A stretch of 49,119 bases of DNA. Source: a phage. Below, in pieces: positions 1-37,472 of this stretch; within the stretch, counting starts at the first letter, position 1; the number at the start of each line of letters is the position of its first letter. The notes beneath the pieces were generated by a model, which saw only the letters and a list, made by a program, of their open reading frames with translations, was not told the origin of the DNA and ran no database searches. Both the position numbers and the translations under genes were made by a program. The stretch is taken from the sequence record PZ465523.1; one strand, given 5' to 3'.

Positions 1-121
1 CCGTTCCGCGTTGATGCTCGCGCAGGTGACTTTATTATCGTAAATAAGCCCGATGGCAAGCCCGCGAAGCGCACAATCTCAAGTGTTAGTGCGGATGGTA
101 AGACTATAGAGGTTAACATCG
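1..121. repeat. Terminal direct repeat, copy 1; identical to 48999..49119
   Basis: Exact 121-bp identity between window start and end, read directly. Confidence 0.9.
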
Positions 122-1884
122 GCTTTGGCTTTCCTGTGAAGCCTAACACGGTATTCGCAATCGATCGTACCGACATTGCGTTGCAGCAGTACGTCGTGAC
201 CAAAATCGACAAGGGTGATGATGATGAGGAATTTACCTACAAAATCACTGCAGTGGAGTACGATCCTAACAAGTACGATGAGATTGATTACGGAGTTAAC
301 ATCGACGACCGACCGACGAGCATCGTTGAGCCAGATCAGATCCCTAAACCGGAAAACGTGAAAGTGTCCTCAGAGTCGAGAATCGTTCAGGGGATGAGCG
401 TAGAAACGATGATTGTTAGCTGGGATAAAGTTCCGTACGCAGTTTTCTATGACGTCCAGTGGCGAAAGGATAATGGCAACTGGCAGAACGTCCCGCAGAC
501 GGCAAACAAGGAGGTTTATGTTGAAGGGATTTACGCTGGCAACTATCAGGTTCGCGTTCGATCTGTCGCTGGTTCCGGTACGACTTCAGGATGGTCAAAT
601 ATCGTAGCTGCGACGCTGACTGGTAAACAAGGTGAGCCGGGGCGACCGATTAACCTTACAGCTACGGATGATGTTGTTTTTGGTATCCGTACAAAATGGG
701 GGTTCTCTGATGGTTCTGGAGATACGGCCTATACAGAGTTGCAACAGTCACCGGATGGAACAGTGGATAACGCAAGTTTGCTTTCTTTGATTCCGTACCC
801 GCAGCATGAGTATTATCACTCACCGATGCCTGGAGGAAATATTGTGTGGTATCGGGTAAGGACCGTTGATAGGATCGGTAACGTGTCTCAGTGGACTGAT
901 TTTGTCAGAGGTATGGCATCAACAAACGTTGACGATATCATTGGAGAGATTTCTGTCGATATCGAAAACTCGCCGGGTTACGAGTGGCTTGTTGATAACG
1001 CAACCGACAACGCGGCGCAGAACGCAGCGAACGCAGAGGCAGCAATTGAGAACGCGCTAGCCAATGACAAAGACGCGATCTACATGAAGAAGGAGAACGG
1101 AAAGCGAAAAGCTGAGTACACGAAATCACTGAAACTTATTGCTGATGAGACGCAGGCGCGAGTGACGTCGATCGAGCAGTTGAAGGCAAGTTTTGACGAT
1201 CAGATTAGCGCAAGCAATAGCGAATTGCGTGAAGTTATAGCGACTGAGACTGGAGCGATATCGCGTGAAATTGACCAGCTAAAGGCTCAGATTGGTGACG
1301 ATATTCAGGCGAACTTGACAGATATCCGAGAGGCTATCGCAAACGAGACTGAGGCTAGAACTCAGGCCGACTTAACGTTAAGCGCGAGACTTGGAAATAA
1401 CGAGGCGGCACTTTCTCAAAAACTTGACTCTTGGAGTAATGCGAGTTCCACCGGGGTAATGCACGGAGTCAAGTTGGGTCTGAAATATAACGGTCAGGAA
1501 TACAGTGCAGGCATGGCTATGTCTCTTATTGGTTCAGGTGCTGCGGTTAAGGCGCAAATTCTATTCGAGGCGTCACGATTTGCAATCATGACAGGGATGA
1601 ACGGTCAGACTCAGTATCCTTTCGTTGTTGAAGGTAATCAGGTGATTCTTAATAGCGCCATCATTAAGAACGGATTCATCACGAATGCGATGATTGGAAA
1701 CTTCATTCAGTCGAATAACTATGTCTTTAACCAGTCCGGCTGGAGGCTTGACAAGGGTGGAACATTCGAAAACTACGGAAGTGACGGTGAGGGTGCAATG
1801 AAGCAAACTAATACCACAATATCTGTTAGGGATGCGAATGGTCGCCTGAGGGTTCAGATTGGCAGGTTGACTGGTTCATGGTAA
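1..1884 (+). CDS. Tail tip / host specificity protein (lambda J-like), C-terminal part; 5' partial here, continues from 47463..49119
   Basis: Frame at 121 matches frame of the open ORF running off the window end; ORF track 136..1884 is the same frame; long coiled and beta-rich C-terminus; stop at 1884. Confidence 0.8.
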   Translation, partial: PFRVDARAGDFIIVNKPDGKPAKRTISSVSADGKTIEVNIGFGFPVKPNTVFAIDRTDIALQQYVVTKIDKGDDDEEFTYKITAVEYDPNKYDEIDYGVNIDDRPTSIVEPDQIPKPENVKVSSESRIVQGMSVETMIVSWDKVPYAVFYDVQWRKDNGNWQNVPQTANKEVYVEGIYAGNYQVRVRSVAGSGTTSGWSNIVAATLTGKQGEPGRPINLTATDDVVFGIRTKWGFSDGSGDTAYTELQQSPDGTVDNASLLSLIPYPQHEYYHSPMPGGNIVWYRVRTVDRIGNVSQWTDFVRGMASTNVDDIIGEISVDIENSPGYEWLVDNATDNAAQNAANAEAAIENALANDKDAIYMKKENGKRKAEYTKSLKLIADETQARVTSIEQLKASFDDQISASNSELREVIATETGAISREIDQLKAQIGDDIQANLTDIREAIANETEARTQADLTLSARLGNNEAALSQKLDSWSNASSTGVMHGVKLGLKYNGQEYSAGMAMSLIGSGAAVKAQILFEASRFAIMTGMNGQTQYPFVVEGNQVILNSAIIKNGFITNAMIGNFIQSNNYVFNQSGWRLDKGGTFENYGSDGEGAMKQTNTTISVRDANGRLRVQIGRLTGSW

Positions 1885-1890
1885 TATCAA

Positions 1891-1919
1891 GGGCATCGAG
1901 AGATGCCCTTTTCTTTTTG
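1891..1919 (+). terminator. Rho-independent terminator after J-like gene
   Basis: GC stem GGGCATC-gaga-GATGCCC followed by T-run. Confidence 0.7.
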
Positions 1920-1929
1920 AGGATTTATT

Positions 1930-2235
1930 ATGGCGTATGGTATATCAACTTGGGACGCAAATGGCGTTTATAATAACTATGGAATTAAGCCTGTTACGGT
2001 TGTTGGTTGGAACTTTTTGTCAGCAGGACAGAATTCAGCATCGTTCAGCTATCAAGTTCCTCCTGGTATGCATGTGAACTACGTTATAAGCCTTGACGAT
2101 GGCGCCATTAGTGGGCCTGGCAGGAAAATTATTGCTAGCGGTAATACGATAACAGTAACGCCAACAAACTCACCTGGGCCAAACGTGTACCCATCATCAA
2201 ACTGCTACTTAATAGCATATCTGGAGAATGATTAA
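1930..2235 (+). CDS. Hypothetical tail-region protein, paralog of the next ORF
   Basis: ATG with RBS GAGGA; shares Y-G-x-x-x-W-D-A-x-G motif with 2235..2924. Confidence 0.55.
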   Translation: MAYGISTWDANGVYNNYGIKPVTVVGWNFLSAGQNSASFSYQVPPGMHVNYVISLDDGAISGPGRKIIASGNTITVTPTNSPGPNVYPSSNCYLIAYLEND

Positions 2236-2924
2236 TGTCATACGGTGCTTTTATAGATGTAAACGGAAACCCATTCATAACCCCGTTATCCACGCCATTC
2301 GCCTTATATGCGAGAGGGGAAATTCAATCAGTAAATGTTAGTGGTTCACAGGTTGCGGAGAGATATGTTCGGATACCTACAGGTGTTCCGGTTATAGCTT
2401 TTTGCAAAACAACAAACACGCAGCAGGGGACCGCGCTTTCAGCCTTTACTTTCAGAGATGGACCAAATGTTGGAACTGTTTACATAAGGGGGACAAATCC
2501 AGCAAACCAATCATACACGCTAACATATTACATATTTGCCATATTTGAGCAGTCACTACCGAGCTGGGGTATGGCAATATGGGATGCGTCAGGAAAGCTA
2601 GTGCTGACAAATGAGACAAAAGTCCTTAGTGATTTGGTTACAATCGGAACTCCTGGGTACGCTGGCGGTGGGCTAAACATAGACACAACACTCAGCGGAA
2701 GCTACGCAGTTGTCCCAACTATACTTGGCAACTATCAAATTGTTATCGGCAGATTGCCAACTGGGCAACCCATAATAGGAAACTCAACAGCAGGCAGTTC
2801 ATGCAGATACAACGGGAGCACAACGAGAATAAATGCAGCAGCAACCACTGCGGCAGGTCAGGTAATGAACACCACGAATAATGGAAATATTATAACAGCA
2901 ATAAAAACGGCAGCATACGACTAA
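2235..2924 (+). CDS. Hypothetical tail-region protein, possible receptor-binding accessory
   Basis: ATG overlaps upstream stop (TAATG); Gly/Thr/Asn-rich C-terminus. Confidence 0.55.
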   Translation: MSYGAFIDVNGNPFITPLSTPFALYARGEIQSVNVSGSQVAERYVRIPTGVPVIAFCKTTNTQQGTALSAFTFRDGPNVGTVYIRGTNPANQSYTLTYYIFAIFEQSLPSWGMAIWDASGKLVLTNETKVLSDLVTIGTPGYAGGGLNIDTTLSGSYAVVPTILGNYQIVIGRLPTGQPIIGNSTAGSSCRYNGSTTRINAAATTAAGQVMNTTNNGNIITAIKTAAYD

Positions 2925-2947: not shown

Positions 2948-3173
2948 ACATCGAGCAATCGTGAGACTTGAAGTTATTCTCTGATACGTAGTTGAAGGAG
3001 AATGGGTATCCAGCACGTAACAGCATCTCATCACCGCGCATCTTAGATCCAAAAACGTAAACCGAGTAATCTTCACCGCCTGATTCATAAATTGCCGTAC
3101 AAGTGCGCTCAGGCATCGATGAACAACCAGTCAGGATGAATGCCGCAGTAATAATGGTGATTAACTTTTTCAT
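2946..3173 (-). CDS. cor: Cor-like superinfection-exclusion lipoprotein (75 aa)
   Basis: N-terminal signal peptide with lipobox (ILTGC); position after tail genes as in T1-like phages; RBS GAGGA before ATG at 3173. Confidence 0.6.
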   Translation of the reverse strand: MKKLITIITAAFILTGCSSMPERTCTAIYESGGEDYSVYVFGSKMRGDEMLLRAGYPFSFNYVSENNFKSHDCSM

Positions 3174-8577: not shown

Positions 8578-9030
8578 TTAACTAAAAATGCTATTTGTCG
8601 TTCCGATATCTTCCTTCTTCACGACGCGCATAAATTTCTTGTTCTTGCATCGCTTCTCAAGGCACTTGCCGTTACCGTCAAACTTCAGATCGAATCGAAG
8701 CCATGCGGCCCGAAACCCTTTGCAACCCTGACGGCGGTAAGCGCGATGTGCAGATTCAGCACCTTGCCACGAAATCATATTGCGATCCTTCCAGCCTTGC
8801 ACGGTCTGATTGCTAACCTTCAGAGCTTTTGCGCAGGCCGCTGGTCCGCCGTAATATTCAATAAGAGCGTCAAGTCGCGCTCGCAGTCCCGCTCGTGTTT
8901 CTTCTTTATGAATATAGAAGCCGCAGCGCTGTCGAGGCTTTTTGTCTTTACCGCGTCGCGTTCCGTTGTTACCATTAATGTGACGTTTATCGATTTCACC
9001 AGTTGACTCTGCGATACGTTGTATATTCAT
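8578..9030 (-). CDS. Helix-turn-helix DNA-binding protein, candidate regulator
   Basis: Cro/YdaS-like HTH segment GGPAACAKALKVSNQTVQGWK; basic N-terminus; start set at ATG 9030 after RBS AGGAGAA. Confidence 0.6.
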   Translation of the reverse strand: MNIQRIAESTGEIDKRHINGNNGTRRGKDKKPRQRCGFYIHKEETRAGLRARLDALIEYYGGPAACAKALKVSNQTVQGWKDRNMISWQGAESAHRAYRRQGCKGFRAAWLRFDLKFDGNGKCLEKRCKNKKFMRVVKKEDIGTTNSIFS

Positions 9031-9043
9031 ATTAATTCTCCTG

Positions 9044-9086
9044 TAGCACTTTTTGCTAAAAACGTTTACTGTATGTCGTGTATTAT
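9044..9086 (+). promoter_or_regulatory. Box-type promoter: TAGCACTTTTTGCTAAAAA, 22 nt, TATTAT
   Basis: Box plus -10-like hexamer at fixed spacing, upstream of helicase gene. Confidence 0.55.
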
Positions 9087-21394: not shown

Positions 21395-21432
21395 TTTCCT
21401 GCTCCTGATGTGTATCTCGTTTCGATGAGGTA

Positions 21433-21478
21433 ATTATGCCAAACTACCCCGATCGAGTTTTAACAAAAAGTGCTATTT
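21433..21478 (-). promoter_or_regulatory. Box-type promoter: AAATAGCACTTTTTGTTAAAA, 22 nt, CATAAT
   Basis: Box encodes the Dcm C-terminus NSTFC and its stop. Confidence 0.55.
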
Positions 21479-22164
21479 GCGATCGCTTTGAAAAATCCAC
21501 GCGGCGACAGGGATCGTATCAGTTTGGTCTTTGCCGACTTGCCGCCCAACTTGCTATGCTGCGCAGAGTACCCTTCAGGAAGGCTTACAGGTTTTCTCTC
21601 CGGCATGACAAAATCGTCCGAGGTCCAAAGACACGTCTTTTTCGGATAAGCATCGCGCGGCGCAATATACATCGGGAACCAGGGATGCGAGTCATTCTCA
21701 GGAAGATAGCCGCCATACTCCCAGGGATTGAATGAGTGATCTGGTTTTCTCCAGGCAGATGACAGAACGCTAACCGGATTCTCAATGATGTAAGTCACGC
21801 CCAGGGCGTCGCCAATATTCGCAGCAATCCGGGCGGTGGCAACGGCCTTCTCCTGGAATAAGGGATTGCGCTTACGCTTACTTGCAAAGTGACGAGCACC
21901 ACTAACAGCCAGGTCAGTGCATGGAGGAAAGGCCATAATGAAATCCGGCTTACCATACACACCCGCAATCGCATCACGTTCGAACGTCTCATCAATGAAG
22001 ACGTTCACATACTCAATGTTCGGATGCTGTACCCGAGCATTGTACTTTGCATAATCTCCGTGATCGGCCCCGTCAAAGTTGAAGCACATCACCTTATGAC
22101 CTTGCTTAGCCAGTTCATGACCAGCAAGGCCGGAACCGTCGAATAGTGACCAAATTAGTTTCAT
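21460..22164 (-). CDS. dcm: DNA cytosine-5 methyltransferase
   Basis: LFDGSGLAG (motif I-like), FPPCTDLAVSG (motif IV PC), IIENP (motif VI ENV); start at ATG 22164 after AGGAGA. Confidence 0.7.
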   Translation of the reverse strand: MKLIWSLFDGSGLAGHELAKQGHKVMCFNFDGADHGDYAKYNARVQHPNIEYVNVFIDETFERDAIAGVYGKPDFIMAFPPCTDLAVSGARHFASKRKRNPLFQEKAVATARIAANIGDALGVTYIIENPVSVLSSAWRKPDHSFNPWEYGGYLPENDSHPWFPMYIAPRDAYPKKTCLWTSDDFVMPERKPVSLPEGYSAQHSKLGGKSAKTKLIRSLSPRGFFKAIANSTFC

Positions 22165-22197
22165 TGCAAATCTCCTGCTGATTGGTTGATGTGATGA

Positions 22198-22242
22198 ATC
22201 ATACCCTGCCAACATAGCTAAGTCGTTAGCAAAAAATGCTAT
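22198..22242 (-). promoter_or_regulatory. Box-type promoter variant: AATAGCATTTTTTGCTAAC, 23 nt, TATGAT
   Basis: Immediately upstream of Dcm leader CAACCAATCAGCAGGAG. Confidence 0.5.
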
Positions 22243-22427
22243 TCCAATAGTTGCTCATTATTCCATCAATAGTGGAATAGTTGGAATAATTTTGATTGTG
22301 ATTGATTGCGAATGATTAAACGTGATTATTGCATTGTGTGCAACAGTTGGTTGATTTGTTGATGAGAATGCAATGATTGTGAGAGGGAGGATTTAGTGTT
22401 ACCCGGTTCGCTTGGTAGTCACCTCCA

Positions 22428-22447
22428 TTTTTAGCAAAAAGTGCTAT
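22428..22447 (-). promoter_or_regulatory. Box GATAGCACTTTTTGCTAAAA without a matching -10 at the usual spacing
   Basis: Distal-most box of the leftward arm, followed by hairpin GGAGG...CCTCC. Confidence 0.45.
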
Positions 22448-22856
22448 CCGTCTATATCTTCGTTGTAATTGTCGTAATAGTTGTATACTATCGGGGGTGT
22501 TACAAAATGGCCCCGAAGGGATGGGCCTATATATACTAAAATATCTATATATAATAATAAGATAGATAATATATATATATTTATTTATTATATTATATAT
22601 TGGTATGTAATCGGCGTAATAGGTGCAACCGCATTTTTGGAAGGTGGCATATATTTCAGGGTGCATAGTATAAAAAACATACTATTCCGCGCGTCGAAAT
22701 GGATGTGTGTGCTTTTATAGAAAAAGTCGGTTGCATCGGTTGCACTGGTTACAAAAATAAAAAATGCAGCTATAGACATTGACGCGCCTAGCCAGGTTGC
22801 TGTAACATGTTTTTCGGGGCGGCAAGTTACGCCCGTAGACAACGAGGTATAGACAA

Positions 22857-23432
22857 ATGAAAACTCAGCTTAAAGAAGTAACGGAATTCGAACTCAACTT
22901 GCCGGACTACATTCGCAAGGCGATTGAAAATCACCGTTCAGGGAGTGAGTTCTCAATCACCGGAAAGCAAATGGTAGCTATCTACGTGCATGAGCAAGCC
23001 GAGATCGTAAAGATCACTCAGGATGTTGAGCTAACCGAGGACCAGATTGATGAGGCTATCATTAACGAGTACACGTCGCGCTCAGCCTGGTTGCTCGAAC
23101 GACTCACCGCTTCGTATGTTTCCAATATCATCAAGCGCCACATGCTCAAGGTGCATAACAAGGCCGTGTCGGTTCGAATCAATCGCGATCAGGTGGATGG
23201 CGTGACGATATTCATCACTGAACTGGAAGGTGAGGAAGCAGAAAAGGTCATAGGCGAAGCGAAACAGGGAAAGAGAGGACGGAAGCGTAAGAGCGTAGCC
23301 GATGTGTTCAATGCGAAGGTTGAGGCGTTCAGAATCGATCTGAGAGAGTTTGAAGGAAGCAACATCTCGGTATCGGATCTCAATAAACTGGTGGAGCAAT
23401 TCCGCGCACATTTACTGGGTGAGGAGAAGTAA
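22857..23432 (+). CDS. Hypothetical early protein (191 aa)
   Basis: First gene of rightward early operon; acidic protein with Lys/Arg cluster KQGKRGRKRK. Confidence 0.55.
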   Translation: MKTQLKEVTEFELNLPDYIRKAIENHRSGSEFSITGKQMVAIYVHEQAEIVKITQDVELTEDQIDEAIINEYTSRSAWLLERLTASYVSNIIKRHMLKVHNKAVSVRINRDQVDGVTIFITELEGEEAEKVIGEAKQGKRGRKRKSVADVFNAKVEAFRIDLREFEGSNISVSDLNKLVEQFRAHLLGEEK

Positions 23433-23434
23433 TC

Positions 23435-23590
23435 ATGAACAAGAAGAATGAAGGCAAAAAGAGCATTAGCCGTCACTTGGACACGTTCAAGCTGGATACT
23501 AAAAAACTGAGCGCGAACCGCATTCAACTTAGTAGCATCAATGAGATCGTGCGCCAGATGAAAGCGCATATCGAAAAGTGTGGACTGTGA
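23435..23590 (+). CDS. Small basic protein (51 aa) not in ORF track
   Basis: Strong RBS GAGGAGAAG; ATG 2 nt after upstream stop. Confidence 0.45.
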   Translation: MNKKNEGKKSISRHLDTFKLDTKKLSANRIQLSSINEIVRQMKAHIEKCGL

Positions 23591-30338: not shown

Positions 30339-30863
30339 ATGAGTGAACCTAAGAACGCTCCCGTTGTTCAGGGAGGTAATTTCAAAGAGCTATACAAGAA
30401 AAAGTTCGGCACTGTTCTTGCGAAGAACCGGGCAATGACTCCTGAGCAACTATTCGATCTGTCAGTGAAGTATTTTGAGTGGGCCGAGGACAATGCGATC
30501 AAGGCGTCAGAATCAGCCAGCTTTCAGGGTGGCGTTTATGAATCTCTTGTTCATAAGCCGCGCGTCTTCACCTGGACCGGATACCGACTATTTATCGGTG
30601 CAAGCGAGGCCGCAATCATTAAGTGGAAGCGAGAGGAAGAATACAGTGAGGTTATGGAGTTTGTGGAATCGGTAATCAACGAGCAAAAATTCCAGCTTGC
30701 CGCCAACGGTGTTATTAATGCCTCCTTTATCGGCAAGGATCTCGGAATCGATAAGCCAGCCTCAATAAATATCGAAAACTCGTCAGCCTCCGCATCGACA
30801 GTAGTCGCCACTACTGAGGATGCAATGAAAGAGGCAGTAAACAGCATTCTTGATATGCTTTAA
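30339..30863 (+). CDS. Terminase small subunit
   Basis: Position directly before large terminase; ATG 30339 after RBS AAAGAGGA. Confidence 0.6.
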   Translation: MSEPKNAPVVQGGNFKELYKKKFGTVLAKNRAMTPEQLFDLSVKYFEWAEDNAIKASESASFQGGVYESLVHKPRVFTWTGYRLFIGASEAAIIKWKREEEYSEVMEFVESVINEQKFQLAANGVINASFIGKDLGIDKPASINIENSSASASTVVATTEDAMKEAVNSILDML

Positions 30864-36707: not shown

Positions 36708-37472
36708 ATGGCTTACGAAAATTTAATGTTGCGACCAGCGTGTCCTGGCAATCTTTCTGATACTTCAACCTACAATATTGATGGATCTTGTGTTGCTCAG
36801 GGTGATATTGAGTTCGGCGCTGCGGTTCAGGTTGTCGGGATCGTTGATGGAGTGAAGGTTGTAAAGGCGCTTGCTGATGGTGGTACTCCTTACGGTATCG
36901 CTTTCCGTTCACAATACGAAAACCTGAGCGGTAAAATCTTAGACGGTGAAGTTTGCAACGTCGTTTCTCATGGTCGCATGTGGACCCTCACTTCTCTTGA
37001 TGAATCTCCGGCCTTATTCTCAAAGTTACAATTTGGATCTGGCGGTGTTGTTACTGGTAGCTCTGGTTCCGTAGGTTGGACATTTGCTGGCGGGTTTGTT
37101 AAGCACGATGAAGGGTACATTATTGAGGTGCAGGTGAAGCAAAATACTTTCATTACTCCACCTCCACCCACTCCTGTTGTTCTTGTTGAGTCTGCGACGA
37201 TTACCACTAACAAGGAGAGTCCGCAGCCAAACAATGCGCCTGTGCAATTTAACGTTGCCGTAAAACCTGACAACGCCACCAATAAAACTGGCGTGTGGTC
37301 TGTTGATGCTGAAAATGTTGCGACAATAGATCCAAAATCTGGCGTTCTTACTCCAATTGGTGGAGATTCAGCAGGTAGCGTAAACGTAAATTGGACGGCT
37401 AACGATGCCAGCAAAACTAAAGAATCGATCACTTATGTCTTTGATGCTACGCCAGCCGAAGAAGACTCATAA
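36708..37472 (+). CDS. Capsid-associated protein with C-terminal Ig-like extension
   Basis: N-terminal domain paralogous to 36171..36647; Pro-rich linker then beta-rich C-terminus. Confidence 0.55.
   Translation: MAYENLMLRPACPGNLSDTSTYNIDGSCVAQGDIEFGAAVQVVGIVDGVKVVKALADGGTPYGIAFRSQYENLSGKILDGEVCNVVSHGRMWTLTSLDESPALFSKLQFGSGGVVTGSSGSVGWTFAGGFVKHDEGYIIEVQVKQNTFITPPPPTPVVLVESATITTNKESPQPNNAPVQFNVAVKPDNATNKTGVWSVDAENVATIDPKSGVLTPIGGDSAGSVNVNWTANDASKTKESITYVFDATPAEEDS

What the first reader, a model, noticed from the sequence alone, without database searches (positions are those of the whole stretch)
22244..22427. ORF-free, dyad-rich 185-bp unit between two boxes at the head of the leftward early arm
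Between the boxes at 22428..22447 and 22225..22242 lies a stretch with no credible ORF but a hairpin (GGAGGTGACTACC...CCTCC), repeated TGATTG / AATGATT units and a palindrome TTGCA-ttgtg-TGCAA. Being flanked by promoter-type boxes in the direction of transcription, it may be a small non-coding RNA or a regulatory binding array.
Basis: inference. Interest (0 to 1): 0.45.

Follow-up and report, generated by a model that had tools for sequence, protein, structure and literature searches.

The report
Packaging-start (pac) region of T1-like phage
The ORF-free 185-bp stretch is most likely not a small RNA gene but the DNA site where this T1-like phage starts cutting and packaging its genome, a site known at low resolution for T1, though its sequence anatomy has not been described in the papers I could search.

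Summary
The window is a Tunavirus whose small terminase (TerS) is 100% identical to that of T1. The two "boxes" are copies of the published 21-nt direct repeat of T1-like phages, and there are 14 in the window.

The interval between the boxes is non-coding. It is exactly 190 nt in 12 of 13 Tunaviruses, with no indels. It holds three elements:
- four TATTCCA/TGGAATA heptamers next to box 2;
- seven TGATT pentamers (0.5 expected), the densest cluster in the genome, spaced roughly in helical phase;
- a conserved GTTGCA-N5-TGCAAC palindrome.

A small RNA is not supported:
- there is no Rfam hit;
- the fold z-score is -1.4 on both strands;
- 0 of 35 predicted pairs show compensatory change;
- there is no terminator;
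- box 1 is the only one of 14 boxes without a -10 hexamer at the fixed 23-24 nt distance.

Every genome end or record break I could trace for relatives falls inside the homologous interval. These are T1 (with its annotated terminal repeat 1..2800), TLS (restriction-mapped pac), MSK and UDF157lw (PhageTerm), and IME167, Henu5_2 and IME347. They lie 100-189 nt from box 2.

Best reading: this is the pac region. I infer that the TGATT array is the TerS binding site. The heptamers next to box 2 may also act as an operator.

This is a known kind of site at a known locus; only the anatomy is new.

The parts
22429..22449 (-). Box 1: a copy of the 21-nt T1-family direct repeat (core 22433-22447, reads GGATAGCACTTTTTGCTAAAA on the - strand). 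It is an 'orphan' copy with no -10 hexamer at the family's fixed distance. Homology among Tunaviruses ends just upstream of it.
   Evidence: hexamer score 1/6 at offset 23/24, against 4-5/6 for the other 13 boxes; homology break; consensus from PMC11447400.
22381..22428 (.). Segment nearest the reported ends. It contains GACTACCA (- strand, 22420-22413), the imperfect dyad TACCAAG-CGAA-CCGGGTA (22417-22400) and the near-invariant GGGTAACAC (22404-22396; TGGTAACAC in T1). The record break of IME167 and Henu5_2 corresponds to 22416|22415. IME347 breaks 21 nt after its own box 1.
   Evidence: record junctions; conservation; the MSK PhageTerm terminus falls at GGACTA|CCATAC.
22293..22378 (+). Array of seven direct TGATT(G) pentamers, starting at 22293, 22299, 22303, 22313, 22323, 22352 and 22374. 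Spacings of 10, 10, 10, 29 and 22 nt are roughly in helical phase. Proposed TerS recognition array. It makes the - strand the most C-rich, G-poor 120 nt of the genome.
   Evidence: 7 observed, 0.51 expected, genome maximum; positions; the same motif array in T1, IME167, IME347, the Klebsiella phages VAC2 and P17, and TLS; Rayleigh R 0.46-0.97 at 10.4 bp, p 0.009-0.18 per phage; GC skew +0.72, rank 1.
22328..22344 (.). Palindrome (A/G)TTGCA-N5-TGCAA(C/T) inside the TGATT array. The arms are conserved and the spacer varies. Position 1 of the T1 GenBank and RefSeq records corresponds to window 22328, the first base of this palindrome.
   Evidence: D7, I6; pairs 89-94/100-105 are invariant or G-U; T1 coordinate 3-121 equals window 22330-22448; repeat_region 1..2800.
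22240..22288 (.). Four heptamers: TATTCCA (22240-22246 and 22259-22265) and TGGAATA (22273-22279 and 22282-22288). Together they form the nested dyads ATTATTCCA-N16-TGGAATAAT and TATTCCA-N7-TGGAATA. The outermost copy overlaps box 2. The array looks like an operator.
   Evidence: (I17, I21). It is conserved in Badaguanvirus and in Klebsiella Webervirus. TLS has two AGACCGATTGGTCT palindromes at the same place.
22198..22244 (-). Box 2 (21-nt repeat 22224-22244, core 22228-22242) with its -10 hexamer TATGAT (22203-22198). This is the promoter-type element that serves the first leftward gene.
   Evidence: TATGAT at offset 24, 5/6 match.
21460..22164 (-). First gene of the leftward arm, a DNA (cytosine-5-like) methyltransferase (ATG at 22164, preceded by GGAG). 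T1 itself lacks this gene, and there the unit precedes T1 Orf1.
30339..30860 (+). Small terminase subunit (TerS), P22 gp3 family and 100% identical to T1 TerS. It is the presumed trans-acting reader of the pac region and lies about 8 kb from it.
   Evidence: (PF16677 GP3_package, 39.4 bits against a 29.4 cut-off).

Best explanation
The interval is the packaging-initiation (pac) region of a T1-type headful phage. It acts as DNA, not as a transcript.

Proposed mechanism:
- Late in infection an oligomer of the gp3-family small terminase (gene at 30339-30860) binds the phased TGATT repeats at 22293-22378. The flanking dyads may help. This step is inferred.
- TerS positions the large terminase to make the first, somewhat imprecise cut in the concatemer, inside or at the box-1 end of the interval, roughly window 22328-22416. 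This range is mapped by homology from relatives.
- Packaging then runs rightward, through box 1 and the AT-rich tract into the arm that leads to the terminase and head genes. It continues for a few headfuls and gives about 2.8 kb of terminal redundancy. This is taken from the T1 annotation and from the PhageTerm results for relatives.

The heptamer dyads that abut box 2 probably have a second role as an operator of the leftward box-2 promoter. Box 1 is an orphan copy of the family repeat next to the cut, not a working promoter.
For: Shown here:

1. The phage is a Tunavirus. Its TerS is 100% identical to T1 TerS and belongs to Pfam GP3_package.

2. Seven genome ends or record breaks of relatives, from five lineages, fall in the homologous interval. 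Distances are from the start of box 2:
- the T1 record origin, 100 nt, with RefSeq repeat_region 1..2800 starting there;
- TLS, 135 nt. Its pac was mapped by restriction digests and its record starts there (PMC11447400);
- UDF157lw, 158 nt. Its record was re-organised by PhageTerm (PMC10838988);
- MSK, 164 nt. PhageTerm gave a forward terminus at 36,862 (PMC8421802);
- IME347, 184 nt, and IME167 and Henu5_2, 189 nt.
The interval is about 0.4% of each genome.

3. The SU57 paper states that the pac of T1 and T1-like phages lies in this untranslated region between the two arms of small ORFs (PMC7718038).

4. TGATT occurs 7 times against 0.5 expected, the genome maximum, all in one orientation and with spacings near multiples of 10 bp. 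The motif array persists in Badaguanvirus, Webervirus and TLS although the surrounding sequence has diverged.

5. The interval is exactly 190 nt in 12 of 13 Tunaviruses despite about 10% substitutions. Its identity (0.84-0.91) lies between that of third codon positions (0.73-0.89) and first plus second positions (0.96-0.985) of the neighbouring gene. The dyad arms are invariant while the spacers vary. This is the pattern expected of protein-binding DNA with fixed geometry.

Against: - No end of this phage's own virion DNA has been measured. The cut position is transferred by homology.
- For IME167, IME347 and Henu5_2 I found no statement that the record start was determined experimentally.
- The reported positions spread over about 90 bp. 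The T1 and TLS positions were fixed at low resolution, and TLS was finally placed by a weak resemblance to P22 pac.
- TerS binding to TGATT is pure inference. The repeats are sparse in the Rtp-like and Rogue-like phages: 3 and 2 copies on the box-2 side of the reported cut.
- The phasing statistics are only suggestive (p 0.009-0.18) and the phages are related.
- The GACTACCA octamer shared by the Tunavirus and MSK cuts is on opposite strands relative to the gene arms. It is absent at the UDF157lw cut, so no conserved cut sequence is established.
- No P22-type pac sequence is present.
- An operator or leader function for the same DNA is not excluded.
Confidence: 0.6

Rival explanations
1. The interval is a transcriptional control region of the leftward early operon. 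The heptamer dyads, the GTTGCA-N5-TGCAAC palindrome and the two boxes would bind a phage or host regulator, for example by looping between the boxes 205 bp apart, to switch the box-2 promoter.
For: - Dyad sites lie directly upstream of box 2 and overlap it.
- TLS has two perfect 14-bp palindromes at the same position.
- The palindrome shares the GCA-N5-TGC core with the box dyad TAGCA-N5-TGCTA.
- The box-to-box distance is fixed at 205 bp.
- The phage encodes an HTH protein flanked by boxes.
This reading is compatible with the pac reading for the part next to box 2.
Against: - It does not explain why the genome ends of seven relatives map here.
- It does not explain the one-orientation TGATT array.
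- Box 1 is absent in TLS, MSK and UDF157lw, although the rest of the module is present.
- No regulator has been identified.
Confidence: 0.2
2. The interval is transcribed leftward, from box 1 or from further upstream, as a small RNA or an untranslated leader. Because the transcript would be the most C-rich, G-poor and unstructured stretch of the genome, it could act as a Rho-loading (rut) attenuator ahead of the methylase operon.
For: - The boxes are oriented with transcription.
- The - strand of 22271-22390 has the most extreme C-over-G skew of all 120-nt windows.
- The predicted RNA is weakly structured.
- The 5' leaders of other box-driven genes are also CA-rich, and the interval contains a copy of the box-2 leader motif (TCAACAAATCAACCAA against TCATCACATCAACCAA, D4).
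Against: - Box 1 has no -10 hexamer at the distance used by the 13 other boxes.
- There is no terminator, no Rfam hit, and no evidence for structure or covariation.
- The skew follows directly from the TGATT repeats.
- I found no transcriptome of a T1-like phage.
Confidence: 0.08
3. The interval is part of the phage replication origin, with iteron-like repeats next to an AT-rich unwinding element.
For: - A 78-bp, almost pure A+T tract lies 80 bp beyond box 1 (22526-22603).
- It is flanked by inverted arrays of 9-mers (TCGGTTGCA x3), which differ between phages in the manner of iterons.
- The region sits at the divergence point of transcription, and the origin of T1 is unknown (PMC11447400).
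Against: - Those origin-like features lie outside the interval and are not conserved together with it. Homology breaks at box 1.
- There are no DnaA boxes or IHF consensus sites in the intergenic region.
- The mapped genome ends point to packaging.
Confidence: 0.08

Closest known systems
pac end of coliphage T1 and of TLS, with the family's 21-nt intergenic repeats (T1 records AY216660 and NC_005833; TLS paper PMC11447400)
   Same: - The locus is homologous: the divergent non-coding region between the two arms of small early genes.
- TerS is identical to that of T1.
- The T1 record origin and its terminal repeat 1..2800 start at window-equivalent 22328.
- The TLS record starts inside its own TGATT array.
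- The boxes match the published consensus aaATAGCACnnnTTGnTAAAA.
   Different: - The papers I could read place pac only at low resolution, or by a 6-nt resemblance to P22.
- They describe neither the TGATT array, nor the heptamer dyads, nor the orphan box, nor the indel-free 190-nt spacing.
- This phage has a methylase gene between the unit and the T1 Orf1 homologue.
P1 pac site: about 160 bp with TGATCA/G hexamers on both sides of the cut, bound by PacA and controlled by Dam methylation (from my own knowledge of the work of Sternberg and Skorupski; not checked here)
   Same: - It is a pac region of roughly 150-190 bp.
- It is built from short repeats of similar sequence (TGATTG here, TGATCA/G in P1).
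- The cut lies inside or next to the array.
- Most Tunaviruses and TLS have 2-3 GATC sites in the array.
   Different: - The window has no GATC at all in the 692-bp intergenic region, so Dam control is not a conserved feature.
- The repeats here lie mainly on one side of the most precisely reported cuts.
- The P1 site lies inside pacA, whereas this one is about 8 kb from terS.
- The terminase families differ.
P22 and Sf6 pac: a 22-bp site inside the gp3-family terS gene, with the first cuts spread over about 120 bp (cited in PMC11447400; the cut spread is from my own knowledge)
   Same: - TerS belongs to the same Pfam family, GP3_package.
- The spread of reported ends over about 90 bp resembles the imprecise series-initiation cuts of P22.
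   Different: - The window has no match to the P22 pac sequence.
- The site is intergenic and far from terS.
SPP1 pac: pacL and pacR TerS-binding boxes flanking the pacC cut, with DNA bending or wrapping (from my own knowledge; not checked here)
   Same: - Short repeats are spaced in helical phase beside the cut, consistent with DNA wrapped on a TerS ring.
- One side is conserved and is not encapsidated.
   Different: - There is no sequence similarity.
- Binding on the encapsidated side has not been identified here.
- The SPP1 site overlaps the terS promoter and gene.

Membership tests
Headful-phage pac site | It is the site of the first, sequence-directed cut: a preferred end of virion DNA maps there. 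| tested here: met
   Met by homology only. Seven reported ends or record breaks of relatives map 100-189 nt from box 2 inside the homologous unit. The virion DNA of this phage itself has not been examined.
Headful-phage pac site | The phage uses a TerS/TerL headful mechanism. | tested here: met
   TerS is at 30339-30860, belongs to Pfam GP3_package, and is 100% identical to T1 TerS. T1, TLS, MSK and UDF157lw are reported as pac-type headful packagers.
Headful-phage pac site | TerS binds the site specifically, and the site alone is enough to direct packaging or transduction. | not testable with these tools
   This needs EMSA or footprinting, and plasmid-transduction assays.
P22-type pac sequence | A match to GAAGATTTATCTGAAGTCGTTA or to its 12-nt core. 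| tested here: not met
   There are 0 matches to the 22-mer with up to 3 mismatches. The 12-mer with up to 2 mismatches gives 3 hits elsewhere, fewer than the 6.5 expected by chance.
P1-type pac site | TGATCA/G hexamers carrying GATC (Dam) sites on both sides of the cut. | tested here: not met
   The repeats are TGATT(G). There is no GATC in 22165-22856. The resemblance is in architecture only.
T1-family 21-nt direct repeat (aaATAGCACnnnTTGnTAAAA) | The consensus sequence, located between genes and oriented with transcription. | tested here: met
   Both boxes match. There are 14 copies against 0.41 expected, all co-oriented with the flanking genes.
T1-family 21-nt direct repeat (aaATAGCACnnnTTGnTAAAA) | The repeat is followed by a gene (about 76 nt to the start codon) and, as found here, by a -10-like hexamer 23-24 nt downstream. 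| tested here: not met
   Box 2 meets both (TATGAT at offset 24; ATG at 22164). Box 1 meets neither: the hexamer score is 1/6, there is no TANNNT at offsets 15-39, and no ORF follows.
Small non-coding RNA gene | Its own promoter and terminator delimit a discrete transcript. | tested here: not met
   Box 1 has no -10 hexamer. There is no sigma-70-type site on the - strand and no terminator in the interval.
Small non-coding RNA gene | A conserved secondary structure, shown by stability beyond shuffles, by covariation, or by a known family. | tested here: not met
   z = -1.44 and -1.43. 0 of 35 pairs are compensatory. There is no Rfam match (best E = 6.4). Power is limited by about 10% divergence.
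Replication origin (iterons plus AT-rich DUE, DnaA or IHF sites) | Initiator-binding repeats next to an unwinding element, inside the interval. | tested here: inconclusive
   The AT-rich tract and the 9-mer arrays lie outside the interval, at 22526-22753. There is no DnaA box or IHF consensus in the intergenic region. Origin function as such cannot be tested here.

The most novel reading that the evidence does not exclude
The phased, one-orientation TGATT(G) array, about 8 kb from terS, is the recognition element that a P22-gp3-family small terminase wraps. An orphan copy of the family's promoter box sits 17-21 bp from the cut in Tunavirus and Badaguanvirus. This could couple the still-unknown box-binding factor, and so the transcription programme, to the start of packaging. 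If true, it would be the first sequence-level definition of the T1-family pac site and would give a function to at least one copy of the unexplained 21-nt repeat.
Probability: 0.3. Interest if true: 0.55.

Novelty: new member of a known kind. Interest (0 to 1): 0.35.

Why it matters
T1-like phages (Drexlerviridae) are common laboratory and fermentation contaminants, candidates for phage therapy, and generalized transducers. Yet their pac site has been placed only roughly. The 2024 TLS paper assigned it by a 6-nt resemblance to P22, and the SU57 paper calls it "not identified".

A defined module of about 190 bp, with a testable recognition array, would help in several ways:
- genome ends could be annotated consistently;
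- pac-carrying plasmids could be designed for transduction or for rebooting phages;
- the specificity of gp3-family TerS proteins could be compared.

The analysis also sharpens the open question about the 21-nt repeats. Thirteen of 14 sit at a fixed distance from a -10 hexamer, in the geometry of an activator site, and the single exception lies next to the cut.

Tried and rejected
- Rfam scan of 21900-23000 at E up to 10: only chance hits.
- RNA folding of both strands and of the possible leader: z = -1.4 to -1.8.
- RNAalifold covariation: none.
- ORF search down to 20 aa, and coding-signature tests on the stop-free frame seen in relatives: not coding.
- Generic sigma-70 promoter and terminator scan: nothing on the - strand inside the interval.
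- P22 pac sequence, DnaA boxes and IHF consensus: absent.
- The TACCAGG-CGAA-CCTGGTA dyad is perfect only in T1. Its substitutions elsewhere are not compensatory.
- Literature: I found no transcriptome or TSS map of any Drexlerviridae phage. The T1 genome paper is not held. The paper on the IME phages says nothing about termini. The KanT1, SH6, ZCKp20p and CRKP-cocktail papers gave no coordinates.
- Cumulative GC skew only mirrors the direction of transcription.
- A conserved cut sequence could not be established. GACTACCA is shared by Tunavirus and MSK but is inverted relative to the gene arms, and it is absent in UDF157lw.

Full report
**Identity of the window.** Megablast of 21400-23500 finds 76 phage records. 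All the listed top hits are Tunavirus (T1-like, Drexlerviridae), and the best is Shigella phage phiL at 96%. The small terminase at 30339-30860 is 100% identical to that of T1. The finding lies in the ~690-bp non-coding region between two divergent arms. The leftward arm starts with a DNA methyltransferase (ATG at 22164). The rightward arm starts at 22857 and, by comparison with the phiL annotation, runs through about 8 kb of small genes into terS, terL and the head and tail genes.

**Check of the observation.**
- The box core AGCAAAAARTGCTAT, with up to 2 mismatches, occurs 14 times against 0.41 expected, always oriented with local transcription.
- It is the published 21-nt direct repeat of T1-like phages (aaATAGCACnnnTTGnTAAAA). 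That repeat has 18 intergenic copies in TLS, and its function is stated to be unknown (PMC11447400).
- TGATT occurs 7 times at 22293-22378 (0.51 expected, P about 1e-6). This is the densest cluster in the genome.
- The palindrome TTGCA-N5-TGCAA at 22329-22343 keeps its arms in 13 Tunaviruses while its spacer varies.
- The GGAGG...CCTCC hairpin has 5 bp and a 31-nt loop, and the other 12 phages read GGAGA, so it is not a conserved feature.
- The only ORF of at least 20 aa (22316-22666, minus strand) runs through the AT-rich tract into non-conserved DNA.
- In 10 of 13 relatives one minus-strand frame is stop-free from box 1 to box 2. It has no start codon (T1 has TAA two codons upstream), 48 non-synonymous against 7 synonymous codon variants, and no excess of third-position changes. 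It is broken in the window, in phiD2-2 and in Sso008. The interval is therefore non-coding.

**Anatomy and conservation.** I aligned 13 Tunaviruses on the minus strand.
- The interval from the end of box 1 to the start of box 2 is exactly 190 nt in 12 of them, with no indels, despite a mean pairwise identity of 0.90.
- Against phages that share the methylase, identity in the unit (0.84-0.91) lies between that of third codon positions (0.73-0.89) and first plus second positions (0.96-0.985).
- Homology among Tunaviruses stops abruptly just beyond box 1.
- Going from box 2 toward box 1, the unit contains four elements:
  - four heptamers (TATTCCA x2, TGGAATA x2; 22240-22288) forming nested dyads, the outermost overlapping box 2;
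  - the TGATT array, with spacings of 10, 10, 10, 29 and 22 nt;
  - the palindrome, which lies inside that array;
  - a more variable segment (22381-22428) with an imperfect dyad, perfect only in T1, and the near-invariant GGGTAACAC (TGGTAACAC in T1).
- The same layout, namely box 2, heptamer dyads, then a run of TGATT in one orientation, is kept in Badaguanvirus (IME347) and in Klebsiella Webervirus phages, although the sequence between the motifs has diverged.
- TLS has two 14-bp palindromes in place of the heptamers, and its own TGATT run.

**Is it an RNA?**
- I measured the distance from each box to the best -10-like hexamer. Thirteen of 14 boxes have a hexamer matching TATAAT at 4 or more of 6 positions exactly 23-24 nt downstream. 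The background rate is 2%.
- Box 1 scores 1/6 and has no TANNNT at offsets 15-39. The same sequence is conserved in all the relatives.
- The interval has no intrinsic terminator and no Rfam match.
- Fold z-scores are -1.44 and -1.43 on the two strands. RNAalifold finds 0 of 35 pairs with compensatory change.
- One RNA-flavoured feature remains. The minus strand of 22271-22390 is the most C-rich, G-poor 120 nt of the genome, as a Rho-loading site would be. But this follows directly from the TGATT repeats, so I keep it only as a minor rival.
- I found no transcriptome or TSS map of a T1-like phage.

**What the locus is known for.** Blast hits of the unit end at record boundaries in many relatives, so I traced each boundary.
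- The T1 records begin at window-equivalent 22328, the first base of the palindrome. RefSeq annotates repeat_region 1..2800 from there, which is the terminal redundancy. T1 DNA is thus taken to start here and to be packaged rightward.
- The SU57 paper states that the pac site of T1 and T1-like phages lies in this untranslated region (PMC7718038).
- The TLS pac was mapped by restriction digests, and the record starts inside its TGATT run.
- For the Rtp-like phage MSK, PhageTerm gave a forward terminus at 36,862 (PMC8421802). In the record that position lies in the homologous region, 164 nt from the box-2 equivalent.
- The Rogue-like UDF157lw record was re-organised according to PhageTerm (PMC10838988). 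It breaks 158 nt from box 2.
- The records of IME167 and Henu5_2 (Tunavirus) break at GACTA|CCAGG, 17 nt after box 1. IME347 (Badaguanvirus) breaks 21 nt after its own box 1, in different sequence.
- Measured from the start of box 2, the seven positions are 100, 135, 158, 164, 184 and 189 (the last shared by IME167 and Henu5_2). All lie inside the unit, which spans 15-204 on that scale. The unit is about 0.4% of each genome, so this agreement cannot be chance.

**Best explanation.**
- The unit is the pac region. The location is supported by homology, as above.
- I infer that the gp3-family TerS binds the phased TGATT repeats and directs TerL to cut within or at the box-1 end of the unit.
- Packaging then proceeds rightward.
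- The spread of about 90 bp in the reported ends fits the imprecise series-initiation cutting known for P22-type terminases (my own knowledge). It also reflects the low resolution of the T1 and TLS positions.
- The phasing is suggestive only (Rayleigh R 0.46-0.97 at 10.4 bp, p 0.009-0.18 per phage, and the phages are not independent).
- The heptamer dyads abutting box 2 are better placed to be an operator of the leftward promoter. The two roles are compatible.
- The octamer GACTACCA is found at both the Tunavirus and the MSK breaks, but on opposite strands relative to the arms, and it is absent in UDF157lw. I therefore do not claim a conserved cut sequence.

**Comparison with known systems.**
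- The site is homologous to the T1 and TLS pac end.
- In architecture it resembles the P1 pac site (short TGATCA/G repeats around the cut) and SPP1 pacL/pacR.
- Membership of the P1 type fails, because the window's intergenic region has no GATC.
- Membership of the P22 type fails by sequence, although TerS is in the P22 gp3 Pfam family.
- Unlike P22, Sf6, SPP1 and P1, this site is about 8 kb from terS.
- An origin of replication is a weaker rival. The AT-rich tract and the lineage-specific 9-mer arrays lie outside the unit, and no DnaA or IHF consensus is present.

**Verdict.**
- The small-RNA reading is not supported. The "binding array" reading is partly right, but the likely ligand is the terminase.
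- That pac lies at this locus is already known for T1 at low resolution. The sequence anatomy (phased TGATT array, heptamer dyads, orphan box beside the cut, indel-free spacing) is not described in the papers I could search, and it is directly testable.
- Interest is moderate to low for a specialist.

Noticed in passing
window, all 14 boxes (8580, 9043, 11553, 16334, 18496, 19515, 20630, 21462, 22228, 22433, 23605, 24883, 37495, 41259): Thirteen of 14 copies of the 21-nt family repeat are followed, exactly 23-24 nt after the 15-nt core, by a TATAAT-like hexamer, often with an upstream TGn. The core is a dyad, TAGCA-N5-TGCTA, whose centre would fall near -42. Its TTGCTA is 22 nt from the -10 hexamer and so cannot serve as a -35. 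This is the geometry of a class-II activator site (compare Mu Mor/C). It suggests an answer to the published open question about these repeats. Many copies also have a short hairpin that encloses the -10 hexamer.
   Followed up: partly
window 8581-9030 (-), with boxes at 8580-8594 and 9043-9057: A 150-aa protein with a sub-threshold P22_Cro/YdaS-type HTH match (annotated as a transcriptional regulator in phiL) is flanked on both sides by boxes. It is a candidate for the unknown box-binding factor.
   Followed up: no
window 22448-22856: Beyond box 1 lie an almost pure A+T tract (22526-22603) and inverted arrays of 9-mers (TCGGTTGCA x3 at 22721-22753, with inverted copies at 22606-22638), just upstream of the first rightward gene (22857-23432, no Pfam family). 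T1 has a different 9-mer (CGATTAACA x3) at the same place. These are lineage-specific iteron-like or operator-like repeats and possibly the origin. Homology among Tunaviruses breaks exactly at box 1, as if the box were a mosaic boundary.
   Followed up: partly
window 22228-22447, minus strand, frame of ATA GCA CTT: This frame is free of stop codons across the whole box 1 to box 2 span (73 codons) in 10 of 13 Tunaviruses. It has no start codon and no coding signature, and it is interrupted in the window (TAA at 22319-22317). It is probably a by-product of the A/C-rich repeats.
   Followed up: yes
window 22165-22856: This 692-bp intergenic region has no GATC site, although the genome has 239 (4.9 per kb) and the phage family encodes a Dam-type methylase. 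Most other Tunaviruses and TLS carry 2-3 GATC sites inside their TGATT arrays.
   Followed up: partly
window 22220-22228; L018 (MSK) 36718-36726; UDF157lw junction: AAGTCGTTA beside box 2 equals the last 9 nt of the 22-nt P22 pac site. MSK and UDF157lw have AGATTTATG, like the P22 pac core, on the other side of their box 2. No full P22-type site exists in the window, so this is probably chance. It is noted because TerS belongs to the P22 gp3 family.
   Followed up: partly
L001 (phiL) 2594-2953; window 22316-22666 (-): The hypothetical-protein CDS annotated in phiL across the AT-rich tract, and the 116-aa ORF in the window, lie in non-conserved, low-complexity DNA. They look like over-calls.
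   Followed up: no
L003 (SA30RD), terminator features, e.g. 3013-3057: Several features annotated as rho-independent terminators in SA30RD cover the box plus the hairpin that encloses the -10 hexamer. The same elements are thus read as terminators in one record and behave as promoter modules by geometry. They may be bifunctional terminator-promoter cassettes.
   Followed up: no
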